Below are positions 22,539 through 28,730 of a stretch of 64,000 nucleotides of DNA, in pieces. Each line of letters starts with the position of its first letter. Within the stretch, counting starts at the first letter, position 1. Below the pieces are notes generated by a model. It was not told the origin of the DNA and ran no database searches. It saw nothing but the letters and a program-made list of their open reading frames with translations. Source of the stretch: Candidatus Freyarchaeum deiterrae. Lineage in GTDB: Archaea; Asgardarchaeota; Jordiarchaeia; Jordiarchaeales; Jordiarchaeaceae. Both the position numbers and the translations under genes were made by a program. Where the stretch lies: NCBI GenBank assembly GCA_037305845.1, contig CP147778.1, positions 960,001-1,024,000 on the forward strand. The letters are read 5' to 3'.

Positions 22539-23153
22539 TTAGCGCGACTCCGCTATTACCTTGTAAAGTTCTTCTATGTTTTCTCCTGTTAGAGCGGATA
22601 TGGCTACGCTCTTATGATCAGGAAACGCGTCGTAGACCAGCTTGGGACGCGAATGAGGTAGGTCTATCTTGTTTGCAATGATAATGTTCGGTATGTTTTT
22701 TGCTTTCAGGTTTCCCAGAATAACAAGGTTAACCTGGTCGAAGGGCACCTTCGTGGTATCGAAGATGGTTAGAGCGAGGTCTACGTTGTCAAGCCATTGG
22801 ATAGCTTCAACCACACCTTTAGTAGCTTCTTTGGCTCTTTCAATTGCTTCCTCTTTCGATAATCCGTGCTTTAAAAAGGCCTTATAATCGACTTTACTAG
22901 AAATGCCGGGCATGTCTACAACATTCATTTTGAGGCGTCTTCCATTGTAGTGCATCTCTAGATGTTCTACGACGTTAGCGGTACGAGTTTCGTGTGGAAT
23001 AGGGGAAGCTTTCCCAGCTTCTTTTCCCATCCAGTCGGTGCAGATTCTATTTGCAAGAGTTGTTTTACCAGCGTTAGGACTACCATAAATGCCGAGTGTA
23101 AACTCACCATTTCTCCTAAAGGCACCCGAAACTTTTGAGAACCAGTCTACCAT
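22539..23153 (-). CDS. oapA: Era-like small GTPase OapA/ArvA
   Basis: GIYGSPNAGKTTLANRI, PHETR, DMPG, ERAKEATKGVVEAI, ANKIDLP, ISALTG. Confidence 0.92.
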   Translation of the reverse strand: MVDWFSKVSGAFRRNGEFTLGIYGSPNAGKTTLANRICTDWMGKEAGKASPIPHETRTANVVEHLEMHYNGRRLKMNVVDMPGISSKVDYKAFLKHGLSKEEAIERAKEATKGVVEAIQWLDNVDLALTIFDTTKVPFDQVNLVILGNLKAKNIPNIIIANKIDLPHSRPKLVYDAFPDHKSVAISALTGENIEELYKVIAESR

Positions 23154-24726: not shown

Positions 24727-24869
24727 AAGTGAAAAAGAGCGTACCCCGATAAAAAAAACATTTTTTTCTTTTTATGTTCAAAATAAAATGTTTCAGACTT
24801 AGGAAAAGTGGGAGTTAGTAAACTTTTTATAGTTTTATTTTGCTTTCAGTAAGTAGGGAAAGTGGTCTC

Positions 24870-25559
24870 ATGAAGCTTCTCGGCGCGGCTAAAATAAGCG
24901 ATAAGAACAGGATAACCCTATCAAAGGAGGTAAGAGATAAGTTAAAAGTAGACTCGGGGGATCTCCTTCTATTCTTTGAAGATGACGAAGGAAACGTTTT
25001 GGTTTGTACAGAGAACACCTTACCCTCAGGAAAAAGCGGCGTAGAAGCCCTTAAGTTGCTGGTAACCGGTCCCTACAGCGCTGGGAAGAGCACCGTTGTT
25101 TCTAATCTATCGAGAAAAGCTGCAAACATAGAGGCCTTCGGGACCACGGTTGGCCTAGACTTTGGTAGGAAATACGACGAGGTTAATGTTTTAGACATTC
25201 ACATTTTCGGTACTCCGGGTCACAAGCGTTTCGCCTTCCTGCAGGAGATACTCGCTCAGGGAAGCGCTGGGGTTCTCTTGGTGGTTGATAGCACAAATCC
25301 CGAAACCTTCAGTTTAGCTCAAGACATACTCTACCGAGTGAAGAGGGAGATAAGTGAAGACGCCCCCATCGTTATTTTGGCCAATAAGCAAGACCTAGAG
25401 GGCGCTCTATCACCCGAAGAAGTGGCCAAACAGCTGAACGTTGGAGTAGATGTACCAGTTGTGGGTACGGTAGCCACGCAGAATCAGGGCCTGAGAGAAG
25501 CCTTACAATTAATACTTAAACAAATAAGTAAAAAAGCGGAAAAAAAGACAAACGAATGA
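24870..25559 (+). CDS. AbrB/MazE DNA-binding domain fused to an MglA/Arf-like small GTPase
   Basis: AKISDKNRITLSKEVRDKLKVDSGDLLLF (AbrB); GPYSAGKST, TTVGLDFG, FGTPGH, ANKQD. Confidence 0.85.
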   Translation: MKLLGAAKISDKNRITLSKEVRDKLKVDSGDLLLFFEDDEGNVLVCTENTLPSGKSGVEALKLLVTGPYSAGKSTVVSNLSRKAANIEAFGTTVGLDFGRKYDEVNVLDIHIFGTPGHKRFAFLQEILAQGSAGVLLVVDSTNPETFSLAQDILYRVKREISEDAPIVILANKQDLEGALSPEEVAKQLNVGVDVPVVGTVATQNQGLREALQLILKQISKKAEKKTNE

Positions 25560-25676: not shown

Positions 25677-26717
25677 TTAGTCTTCTATTTCGAATGTTCT
25701 TCGTATCGCCTTAATTATATGTAGTATTGAAGCGTTTTCTAGCTCTGAGGCAGTTATCAGTCCATCCTGAGAGATTATTAGGGGAACCGTTATCTCTTCT
25801 TCGGTGATTCCACCATGGCTTCCCTCTGTTTTCATATCTCCTAGCTCATAGCCCTTTTCAGCTGTTACAACTAAGTCGCCGCTTCTTGGATGGAGAAGTT
25901 TTAACTCGGAAATTCGTTCACTTTCCATAACTTCTTGGATGCCCTTGGTTTCAGTTAGAAATTCGTATATCTGGTGCTTTTGTTCTGGGGTGTTGATGTA
26001 TACGTGGGAGGTTCTATGGGTGGCTAGTGTGATAGCATCTAGATTTTTTTGTCTGAGTAGTTTGTTTAGTTGAATTTGTCTTTTGCCATCGGTCATCCCG
26101 TGGTCTGCGGAAACAATCATGCAAACTTCTTGGCCTTGGGAGTGATACACCTCAAAAATTTTCTTTAGAGCTTTATCTACGTCCTCAACGATTTTTATGG
26201 TTTCTTTGCTATTTGGTCCGTAAGTTTCTCCTATACTGTCAACTGCGGTATAGTTTGCTACTATAAGGTCTGGTTTTTCTTTTTTTATTAGTTTGATAGA
26301 TTCTTCTAATACTTTGCTATTCTGGGTTAGAACTGGGAAACTTTGAATGTAATTTTTCGAAACAATGTGTTTTGCCCCTTTTGTGACTGGTTCTGCTATA
26401 GCCGCTGTTTCTAATCCGGCTGAACTCGCTTCTTCGAAAATGGTTGCCGCTTCAATGCTAGCATTAGGGTCATAAAAGTCAAAATTTCTCGATTCCTTAG
26501 CTTCCCTATCATAGAACAGATTACCAACTATACCGTGCTCTTCAGGATATGTCCCGGTAATTATGGAGGCATGTCCGGTATAGGTTGCTGAGGGAAACAC
26601 CGTTTGGCAGGACATGGTAGATACGCCGTTATTTGACAGTTGGCTCAAGAAAGGGGTCTTTGAATTTTTTATCCAATTGACATTGCAGCCATCAAGAACC
26701 GCTAGGTAAACCTTCAT
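25677..26717 (-). CDS. Alkaline-phosphatase-superfamily nucleotide pyrophosphatase/phosphodiesterase
   Basis: LDG, FPSATYTGHASIITG.YPEEHGIVGN, SADHGM, GSHGG. Confidence 0.88.
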   Translation of the reverse strand: MKVYLAVLDGCNVNWIKNSKTPFLSQLSNNGVSTMSCQTVFPSATYTGHASIITGTYPEEHGIVGNLFYDREAKESRNFDFYDPNASIEAATIFEEASSAGLETAAIAEPVTKGAKHIVSKNYIQSFPVLTQNSKVLEESIKLIKKEKPDLIVANYTAVDSIGETYGPNSKETIKIVEDVDKALKKIFEVYHSQGQEVCMIVSADHGMTDGKRQIQLNKLLRQKNLDAITLATHRTSHVYINTPEQKHQIYEFLTETKGIQEVMESERISELKLLHPRSGDLVVTAEKGYELGDMKTEGSHGGITEEEITVPLIISQDGLITASELENASILHIIKAIRRTFEIED

Positions 26718-26786: not shown

Positions 26787-28038
26787 ATGTATTTTCAGGA
26801 TATTATACACGGTGAGATTAGACCTGATGAACTAGGGTTAAACCTTCTTAAAACAGATACGATGAAGTCTCTTTCAGGCAAAATGGACATAGGCAATATT
26901 AACTTGGTTTATCCTGACGCTAAGCATACTCGACTTGAGCATTGCTTGGGAGTTATGTATACTGCAAACGAGATTTGCAGCTCCCTTTCAGGAAAAGGCT
27001 ATGAAATTGATGAAGAAGCAGTAATCATTAGACTCGCTGGACTGCTCCATGATATAGGGCACGGGCCTGAAGTGTTCTAACACTTTAGGGTGTAAACCTT
27101 TCTCACACGGGTCGGAGATAATATTTCAAGAAAAAACCGGTCTCACCCATGAACAAATGAGTCAAAAGATAATACGGGAGAAAACATCAGATATTAACTC
27201 GGTGCTTAGAAACTCAGGGATTAGCGACAAGGAAATCAGTGAAATTGCAGACATGATTCTCGGAGTGAATAAGAGGAGACCATTCTTAGGAGAAATAATT
27301 CACTGGATGGTGGACGCTGATAAACTGGACTATCTTCCCAGAGACTCACACTCGACTGGATTTTTACCATCCCTAGTTCAAAGCGCCCCCATAATTGATT
27401 CTATAAAACTTTCTGAAGAACATATAGTTTTTGATAAAAGCGCGATTCCCTACTTGGAGTCTATGGTTTTCGCTGAAGCTTTATACTACAACAACATTCA
27501 TCATCATCCATTAGTGAGAAAAGCTGATCAGACCCTCTCGAGAGCGATAAAAATTGCAATTGAAAAAGGTGCGACAAAACCCCTAGATATACAAAGGATG
27601 ACCGATAACCAGATTATAAATTTCCTCAAAAAAATGGGAGAAAAAGCAGCCCATCTAGTATTAAGAATGCAAAATAAGCCATTACACACTATTCTAACTA
27701 TAAACTGGGAAGAACTCGACAAAGATGCGATAAAACAAGTGTTAAAAATAAAGGATAACTACCAGAAAAGAGAGAAATTGGAAAGCGCCATCGCTAGTCA
27801 CGTCGGCGATGACCCAGATTTCGTCATGTTGGATATACCTCCGCTTCCATACATTCAGGAGGCGGATACGCCTATCATAACCGAAGAAGAAGAGGTAAAA
27901 CTGCTTAAAGGGGTCTCAAACTTAACCAGAGTGATAAGTGAAAATCACTATAACCAGTGGAGCCTTTGTGTCTACTCCGAAAAAGAGTGTAAAAAAAGCA
28001 TGGAAAGCCTTAGAGAATTCCTCTTATCCCAAATTTAG
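26787..28038 (+). CDS. HD-domain phosphohydrolase (dNTP triphosphohydrolase/SAMHD1-like), join(26787..27064,27096..28038), 406 aa after intron removal
   Basis: VYPDAKHTRLEHCLGV, LLHDIGHG|PFSH rebuilt across the intron, HEQMS, DADKLDYLPRDS, YY...HHPLVR. Confidence 0.88.
27065..27095 (+). other. 31-nt bulge-helix-bulge (tRNA-endonuclease-type) intron in a protein-coding gene
   Basis: Central 4-bp helix GCAC(27059-62)/GTGT(27090-93); 3-nt bulges GGG(27063-65) and AAA(27094-96); 10-bp intron stem 27066-75/27080-89; exon stem AGG/CCT; canonical cuts give CAC GGA CCT TTC TCA CAC = HGPFSH. Confidence 0.85.
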
Positions 28039-28202: not shown

Positions 28203-28730
28203 ATGTCTGGAGAATACGACTACCTGTTCAAGATAATCGTAATCGGTGATGGTGCGGTTGGAAAAACCAGCCTAACCGTGAGATTTTCACAGGGATACTT
28301 CAAAGAAGATTACAAGATGACAATAGGCGTAGATTTTGCTGTAAAAACAGTTACTATTGACACGAATAATGGGTCTAAAACCGCTAAGCTACAGATTTGG
28401 GATACTGGTGGTCAAGAGAGGTTTTCTTACATTCGTCCTTTGTATTATCGTGGTGCTATGGGTGCTCTTTTGGTTTATGACGTTACTAAGCGGGAGACTT
28501 TTGAACATCTAGAGGGCTGGTTAGCTGAGGTTGGTAAGCATTGCCCTTCGATTCCTATGGTGATGGTTGGTAACAAGACCGATATGCCGGGTAGAGCTGT
28601 TTCTTTAGAGGATGCTTTGGAGTTTTCGATTGATCGTAATATGATGTACTTTGAGACCAGCGCTAAGCAAGGAACCAATGTAGAGTTTGCGTTTAGCGAT
28701 CTTACTAGAATTCTGATTGATTACATGTAG
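28203..28730 (+). CDS. Rab-like small GTPase (eukaryotic signature protein)
   Basis: YDYLFKIIVIGDGAVGKTS, TIGVDF, KLQIWDTGGQERF, YYRGA, LVYDVT, GNKTD, ETSAK. Confidence 0.95.
   Translation: MSGEYDYLFKIIVIGDGAVGKTSLTVRFSQGYFKEDYKMTIGVDFAVKTVTIDTNNGSKTAKLQIWDTGGQERFSYIRPLYYRGAMGALLVYDVTKRETFEHLEGWLAEVGKHCPSIPMVMVGNKTDMPGRAVSLEDALEFSIDRNMMYFETSAKQGTNVEFAFSDLTRILIDYM

What the first reader, a model, noticed from the sequence alone, without database searches (positions are those of the whole stretch)
27050..27108. Canonical bulge-helix-bulge intron inside an HD-domain mRNA
Seen in sequence: the ORF track splits one HD protein into 97 aa and 293 aa pieces in different frames, and the break falls in the conserved HDxGHGPFSH motif. 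The extra 31 nt fold as a BHB. The exon stem is AGG(27056-58)/CCT(27097-99) with further imperfect pairing. The central helix is GCAC/GTGT, the two 3-nt bulges are GGG and AAA on opposite strands, and the intron stem is CCTGAAGTGT/ACACTTTAGG with a TCTA loop. Established: the archaeal splicing endonuclease EndA cuts after the second nucleotide of each bulge and RtcB ligates the exons. Those positions excise exactly 27065-27095, join GG|A as Gly, and yield an intact 406-aa protein. BHB introns are typical of tRNA and rRNA; the classic mRNA case is crenarchaeal cbf5. Inference: this lineage splices a metabolic mRNA with the tRNA machinery, analogous to non-spliceosomal HAC1/XBP1 splicing, and some of its annotated pseudogenes may hide more such introns.
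Basis: partly seen in the sequence, partly recalled or inferred. Interest (0 to 1): 0.95.

Follow-up and report, generated by a model that had tools for sequence, protein, structure and literature searches.

The report
tRNA-type intron in Asgard hydrolase gene
A nucleotide-hydrolase gene of an Asgard archaeon is interrupted in its active-site motif by a 31-base insert of the kind normally cut out of tRNAs, and comparison with relatives indicates that it is cut out of the messenger RNA, which the papers I could search document inside a coding sequence for only one archaeal gene (cbf5).

Summary
Confirmed. The 31-nt insert (27065-27095) forms a complete bulge-helix-bulge (BHB); cutting after the second bulge base restores HDIGHGPFSH and a 406-aa SAMHD1-like HD hydrolase. 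It is not an assembly error (identical in Logan assemblies of 7 runs). Ten orthologs (63-79% identical) carry a 29-31-nt insert at this site: 97.6% of BHB pairs hold, five pairs show compensatory change, and both exons are under purifying selection (dN/dS 0.07-0.21). Seven other ortholog loci are intact and intron-free. The genome, probably Ca. Freyarchaeum deiterrae (Jordarchaeia), encodes two EndA subunits and RtcB. A genome scan gave 7 frame-restoring BHB inserts against 0 for a mirror-geometry control, including single-copy cbf5 and kae1. Best reading: an endonuclease-spliced mRNA intron (0.9). Ribosome hopping, frameshifting, a split gene and a pseudogene fit poorly. HAC1-like regulation is unsupported. 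Earlier notes of this scan report the same kind of intron in many other Asgard genes.

The parts
26787..27064 (+). Exon 1 of the HD-domain (SAMHD1/dGTPase-like) phosphohydrolase gene, codons 1-92 plus GG of Gly93; carries the RxEH and HD metal ligands
27065..27095 (+). 31-nt BHB intron; shifts the frame and holds an in-frame TAA (27078-80)
27056..27058 (+). Exon-exon helix, 5' strand (pairs with 27097-27099)
   Evidence: 93% of cells paired, one A-U to G-C change
27059..27062 (+). Central 4-bp helix, exon strand (pairs with 27090-27093)
   Evidence: 40 of 40 cells paired, one C-G to U-A change
27063..27065 (+). 5' 3-nt bulge; predicted cut after 27064
   Evidence: cut rule as in PMC2738675
27066..27089 (+). 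Intron hairpin: 10-bp stem, 4-nt variable loop
   Evidence: 98% paired, 3 pairs with changes on both sides
27090..27093 (+). Central helix, intron strand
27094..27096 (+). 3' 3-nt bulge AAA, invariant in 10 of 10 orthologs; predicted cut after 27095
27096..28038 (+). Exon 2: A of Gly93, then PFSH...DADKLDY to the stop (residues 94-406)
25677..26717 (-). Divergent nucleotide pyrophosphatase/phosphodiesterase-family gene (PF01663), 69 nt from the HD start; conserved neighbour, not part of the intron

Best explanation
The insert is an archaeal BHB intron in a messenger RNA. The transcript folds so that four exon bases (GCAC) pair with the intron's 3' end between two 3-nt bulges. The tRNA-splicing endonuclease EndA (two subunit genes here) cuts after 27064 and after 27095, and RtcB joins GG to A, rebuilding Gly93 in HDIGHGPFSH and the frame for a 406-aa HD phosphohydrolase. 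Unspliced RNA yields only a 97-aa fragment lacking the HGPFSH histidine and the DADKLDY aspartate. Shown: geometry, conservation, covariation, selection on both exons, presence of the enzymes, existence of an exactly intron-free copy in a relative. Inferred: that EndA and RtcB act on this RNA in the cell. The intron is probably a tolerated passenger, gained once or twice within Freyarchaeia where the exon already offered a 3-bp stem with a 7-nt loop (like an anticodon arm); no regulatory role is shown.
For: Insert absent from five congeneric genomes and two further assemblies, whose ORFs are uninterrupted. Identical insert in Logan contigs of 7 runs. Same-site insert in 10 distinct orthologs; 97.6% of 169 cells pair, 5 pairs and 6 cells change on both sides (5/500 and 0/500 shuffles; slid controls 27-62% paired). 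In L044 a synonymous CAC to CAT exon change is matched by G to A in the intron; in L045 a divergent 29-nt hairpin keeps the same geometry. The third base of Gly91 is G or A (able to pair with U) in 10/10 intron-bearing rows but T or C in 3 of 6 intron-free rows. dN/dS 0.08-0.20 (exon 1) and 0.07-0.21 (exon 2), like intron-free pairs (0.08-0.30). L061 (SRR28530378, 3,979 nt) equals L050 (SRR28530383, 4,010 nt) over 3,156 nt with 0 mismatches, minus exactly the 31 nt in the BHB register or its indistinguishable neighbour. Two EndA genes and RtcB. Seven frame-restoring BHB inserts of 28-34 nt at <= -8 kcal/mol against 0 for mirror geometry; cbf5 and kae1 are single-copy, and the cbf5 insert is in all 5 relatives checked.
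Against: No 406-aa product of this genome's own gene is on record. The BHB is not the single-sequence minimum-energy fold. The covariation rests on few events among related sequences, and the tool's shuffle control overstates significance. The gene has an intact distant paralog (28% identity), so it need not be essential; two intron-bearing orthologs (L055, L056) end early at 338 and 355 aa.
Confidence: 0.9

Rival explanations
1. Translational recoding: the ribosome hops over the hairpin (T4 gene 60 style) or frameshifts inside it, so no RNA is cut.
For: In 6 of 10 orthologs, including this one, the codon after Gly (CCT) matches the landing codon (CCT); a hairpin with a stop codon lies between them.
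Against: Take-off and landing codons encode different residues in L050, L051 and L045 (TCT/CCC, TCC/CCC, TCC/CCT). The exon-2 frame has a stop inside the insert in L056 and L050. Insert lengths of 31 and 29 need opposite shifts. Recoding does not explain the conserved exon-intron 4-bp helix, the invariant AAA bulge, or the exact deletion in L061.
Confidence: 0.03
2. Pseudogene: a hairpin-like insertion has inactivated a dispensable paralog.
For: An intact distant paralog exists; two intron-bearing orthologs have early C-terminal stops.
Against: Both exons keep dN/dS 0.07-0.21 across lineages separated by dS of 0.5-2.3, and eight of ten intron-bearing orthologs give 405-406-aa ORFs after excision. 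The insert itself is conserved with compensatory changes.
Confidence: 0.02
3. Split gene: the 97-aa and 293-aa ORFs are translated separately and assemble into an enzyme.
For: Gene callers annotate both pieces in every intron-bearing contig.
Against: The 20 codons between the insert and the second Met (PFSHGSEII...THEQ, with conserved histidines) would be untranslated, yet they are conserved in protein with free synonymous change; L051 has Thr instead of that Met.
Confidence: 0.02
4. The insert is excised precisely at DNA level in part of the population, or intron-free alleles supply the function.
For: L061 could be a DNA contig: it spans a divergent promoter and shares both ends with L050's contig.
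Against: No intron-free copy in any of 10 loci from 7 runs of this organism; no mobile-element features; pairing conserved with G-U pairs points to RNA-level recognition; single-copy cbf5 and kae1 carry the same kind of insert.
Confidence: 0.03

Closest known systems
cbf5 pre-mRNA intron of Crenarchaeota (Desulfurococcales, Sulfolobales; Watanabe 2002, Yoshinari 2006, Yokobori 2009 = PMC2738675)
   Same: Short (16-44 nt there, 29-31 here) BHB intron inside a coding sequence, at a catalytic motif; cut after the second base of each bulge; hetero-oligomeric EndA; patchy presence among relatives.
   Different: Different gene (HD phosphohydrolase, not an RNA-modifying enzyme), different lineage (Asgard Jordarchaeia), a strict canonical motif where most cbf5 introns are relaxed, and one of at least seven such inserts in one genome. 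cbf5 splicing was shown by cDNA and cleavage; here it is inferred.
BHB intron in the 5' UTR of Haloferax volcanii HVO_1309 (PMC7714728)
   Same: mRNA substrate of the splicing endonuclease; short intron (46 nt).
   Different: Untranslated region there, so the frame does not depend on it; homodimeric EndA (own knowledge).
Multi-intron tRNA genes of Freyarchaeia/Jordarchaeia and Atabeyarchaeia (PMC11291895; bioRxiv 10.64898/2026.10.13.758758)
   Same: Same lineage, motif and enzyme; repeated intron gains.
   Different: Those papers treat tRNA genes; the preprint has no occurrence of 'mRNA'. No copy of this intron's sequence lies elsewhere in the genome within 8 mismatches.
HAC1/XBP1 non-spliceosomal splicing in eukaryotes (own knowledge)
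   Same: Protein-catalysed removal of a short frame-shifting intron; ligation by a tRNA ligase (RtcB in animals).
   Different: Cut by Ire1 at two stem-loops and stress-regulated; here a single BHB and no evidence of regulation.
SAMHD1-like HD dNTP triphosphohydrolases (PDB 2hek, 2q14, 2o6i/EF1143, SAMHD1)
   Same: An intact ortholog matches 2hek at E 1.5e-31 and SAMHD1 at about 1e-16; RxEH, HD, HGPFSH and DxxDY motifs present.
   Different: The usual QRLRxIxQLG segment reads KSLSGKMDIG, so substrate and allosteric sites are probably altered; substrate untested.

Membership tests
Archaeal BHB (EndA-spliced) intron | hBHBh' motif: 4-bp central helix, two 3-nt bulges on opposite strands, flanking helices | tested here: met
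Archaeal BHB (EndA-spliced) intron | Borders fall after the second base of each bulge | tested here: met
   Homology-defined insert fits this register; it gives GGA as in G002; the L050/L061 difference fits it
Archaeal BHB (EndA-spliced) intron | Structure conserved by compensatory change in relatives | tested here: met
   5 pairs with changes on both sides, central helix 40/40 cells
Archaeal BHB (EndA-spliced) intron | Host encodes splicing endonuclease and RtcB ligase | tested here: met
Archaeal BHB (EndA-spliced) intron | Intron absent from mature RNA | tested here: inconclusive
   Exactly intron-free contig L061 in a relative, run type unknown; read tools not usable
Archaeal BHB (EndA-spliced) intron | Cleavage by EndA in vitro; circular excised intron | not testable with these tools
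   needs bench work
Programmed translational bypass (T4 gene 60 type) | Matched take-off and landing codons, stop codon next to the take-off site | tested here: not met
   unmatched in 3 of 10 orthologs, CCT/CCG in a fourth; stop is 4 codons on or later
Pseudogene | Relaxed selection on the coding pieces | tested here: not met
   dN/dS 0.07-0.21
HAC1/XBP1-type regulated splicing | Ire1-type nuclease, two stem-loop sites, stress-dependent splicing | not tested
   The site is a single BHB; no expression data
SAMHD1-like HD dNTPase | H...HD...D metal ligands and HGPFSH motif | tested here: met
   (after excision)
SAMHD1-like HD dNTPase | QRLRxIxQLG substrate/allosteric segment | tested here: not met
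   reads KSLSGKMDIG in this and related proteins

The most novel reading that the evidence does not exclude
Jordarchaeia, among the closest prokaryotic relatives of eukaryotes, routinely splice the mRNAs of many unrelated protein genes with the tRNA endonuclease; such introns are gained and lost gene by gene, sit in conserved catalytic motifs, and make many 'split' genes in Asgard annotations intact. This HD intron is one member, seen both with and without the intron in one relative.
Probability: 0.8. Interest if true: 0.85.

Novelty: new variant of a known kind. Interest (0 to 1): 0.75.

Why it matters
In the papers I could search, endonuclease splicing inside an archaeal coding sequence is documented only for cbf5 (PMC7714728 says so as of 2020; later searches found nothing more, though subscription journals are mostly missing). 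A conserved, covarying example in a metabolic gene, with at least six more in the same genome, means mRNA splicing is a normal step of gene expression in an Asgard lineage. It changes how Asgard genomes are annotated (this gene is deposited as two fragments in every intron-bearing assembly), and gives a natural system for asking how introns arise, spread and are lost without a spliceosome.

Tried and rejected
I did not send the spliced protein to look-up tools, since they accept only proteins encoded letter for letter. Searches for the run accessions in papers and supplements found nothing. A first genome scan with shifted-length controls was uninformative because false positives dominated; it was replaced by the mirror-geometry control (one search timed out). 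A pattern search of 400 Asgard genomes found an insert at this motif only in this genome, and a pattern scan of genome contigs found none: the intron-bearing relatives are in metagenome assemblies. No copy of the intron elsewhere in the genome, so no donor was found. Rfam gave no match in the window; the promoter scan was at chance level. The tree does not settle one gain versus two: two changes needed, one clade not rejected, p-AU 0.45. Assembly artefact, pseudogene, split gene and ribosomal recoding were considered and rejected (see rivals).

Full report
Observation. The gene is read as a 97-aa ORF (26787-27080) ending HDIGHGPEVF-stop and a 293-aa ORF (27157-28038) in another frame. Removing 27065-27095 gives 406 open codons with HDIGHGPFSH. 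For this sequence alone the complete BHB is 0.3 kcal/mol less stable than a fold with the central helix open, so folding of one sequence is not proof; the comparative data below are.

Source. The genome is one contig of 3,576,204 bases. Homologs are named Ca. Freyarchaeota or Jordarchaeaceae, and the size matches the complete 3.58-Mbp Ca. Freyarchaeum deiterrae genome, curated from short reads and checked with long reads, in which 92-95% of tRNA genes have introns (PMC11291895). The identification is an inference. The genome encodes two EndA-family proteins, as expected for the two-subunit enzyme common in Asgard archaea, and one RtcB.

Not an artefact. Ten loci from Logan assemblies of seven runs carry the insert, with no mismatch to the window in the gene and no joined form.

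It is an insertion. Five congeneric genomes and two further assemblies have uninterrupted orthologs (405 aa where complete), and the DNA alignment shows a single 31-nt gap. One of them has GGA CCT, the codons produced by the BHB register.

It is conserved as a structure. Homolog searches led to nine further distinct orthologs with an insert at the same site. Over ten sequences, 97.6% of 169 cells form standard pairs; five pairs change on both sides; sliding the partners drops pairing to 27-62%. The central exon-intron helix is paired in 40 of 40 cells, with four variants: G-U, G-C or A-U at the first pair, and C-G, U-G or U-A at the last. The 3' bulge AAA is invariant, the loop varies freely. 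L045 has a divergent 29-nt hairpin with the same borders. RNAalifold returns the full BHB as consensus. These are few events among kin, so the shuffle counts should not be read as probabilities. The intron differs from this genome's at 1-7 of 31 positions while synonymous sites differ at 37-72%.

The gene is alive. dN/dS against intron-bearing relatives is 0.08-0.20 for exon 1 and 0.07-0.21 for exon 2, like intron-free pairs. The 20 codons between the insert and the next Met, which a split gene would leave untranslated, are conserved in protein with synonymous variation. Eight of ten orthologs give 405-406 aa after excision; two end early.

A joined copy exists. The 90% cluster of one intron-bearing fragment holds a 405-aa member. 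Its contig, L061 from SRR28530378 (3,979 nt), is identical to L050 from SRR28530383 (4,010 nt) over 3,156 nt except for the 31-nt intron, removed in the BHB register or the adjacent indistinguishable one. If that run is RNA this is direct evidence of splicing. I could not establish the run type, and the shared contig ends and the spanned divergent promoter leave an intron-free DNA allele open. I treat it as supporting but not decisive.

Other genes. A scan for strict BHBs of 20-45 nt whose removal joins two coding frames gave 7 hits at -8 kcal/mol or lower, against 0 for a mirror geometry that EndA does not cut, from similar numbers of raw structures (6,463 and 6,101). By their sequence motifs (my reading, not family searches) they are cbf5, this gene, a flavin oxidoreductase, an aconitase-family large subunit, kae1, pcm and a porA-like gene, all 28-34 nt. 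cbf5 and kae1 have no second copy, so the cell must remove such inserts. The cbf5 insert splits the catalytic Asp codon, as in Crenarchaeota, and is present in all five relatives checked. Relaxed motifs are missed, so seven is a lower bound.

Mechanism. Most likely EndA cuts after 27064 and 27095 and RtcB joins the exons (cut rule: PMC2738675). The geometry, conservation, selection and enzymes are shown; catalysis on this RNA is inferred. Ribosomal hopping fails because take-off and landing codons are unmatched in three orthologs; frameshifting fails because the second frame is closed inside the insert in two, and 31 and 29 nt need opposite shifts. The spliced exons form a 3-bp stem with a 7-nt loop and the intron sits after the sixth loop base, as in an anticodon arm; intron-free G002 has nearly the same bases, so the site could accept an intron without change. 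One gain with losses or two gains cannot be told apart. Nothing here shows that splicing is regulated.

The protein. An intact ortholog matches solved HD phosphohydrolases and SAMHD1. The metal and catalytic motifs are present after splicing and are divided between the exons, but the QRLRxIxQLG segment is remodelled, so the substrate is uncertain. A distant intact paralog exists.

Known and new. Published BHB introns in archaeal mRNA are cbf5 in Crenarchaeota and a 5' UTR intron in Haloferax; recent work on this lineage covers tRNA introns only. Nine literature searches found no report of mRNA introns in Asgard archaea, within the limits of the library. Earlier notes of this scan describe the same kind of intron in many genes of this and other Asgard genomes; these are unchecked leads, of which I re-derived pcm, kae1 and porA. 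The mechanism is the known cbf5 kind; the breadth and the lineage are new. Verdict: real, very probably spliced, interest 0.75.

Noticed in passing
G000 C1:1483415-1483446 (-); L062-L066: The single cbf5 gene has a 32-nt BHB insert splitting the catalytic Asp codon, as described for Crenarchaeota; present in all five relatives checked. Shared origin or independent gain not tested.
   Followed up: partly
G000 C1:2203742(-), 2244134(+), 1589381(-), 2494680(+), 2636190(-): Further frame-restoring BHB inserts of 28-34 nt in kae1, pcm, a porA-like gene, a flavin oxidoreductase and an aconitase-family subunit.
   Followed up: partly
G000 C1:1876927(-), 2860631(+), 3124210(+), 3572787(+): More BHB candidates from the looser scans; the first looks like S-adenosylhomocysteine hydrolase.
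   Followed up: no
window 27065-27069 and 27096-27099: In six intron-bearing orthologs the intron begins ACCT or ACC and exon 2 begins the same way, a short direct repeat at the borders like a target-site duplication; this genome has G instead of A at 27065.
   Followed up: no
window 26865-26894: The QRLRxIxQLG segment of SAMHD1-like enzymes reads KSLSGKMDIG throughout this ortholog group, suggesting a changed substrate.
   Followed up: partly
window 25677-26717 (-): Nucleotide pyrophosphatase/phosphodiesterase-family gene head-to-head with the HD gene in both intron-bearing and intron-free loci.
   Followed up: partly
   Followed up: no
L055, L056: Two intron-bearing orthologs end early (338 and 355 aa after excision); a cluster mate of L056's fragment is full length, so this may be strain variation or assembly error.
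   Followed up: no
whole genome: ARAGORN finds only 17 tRNA genes, several clearly mis-called, as expected for multi-intron tRNAs.
   Followed up: no
window 22539-23153, 24840-25559, 28203-28730: Three small GTPase genes nearby, one apparently fused to an AbrB-like N-terminus and one Rab-like.
   Followed up: no
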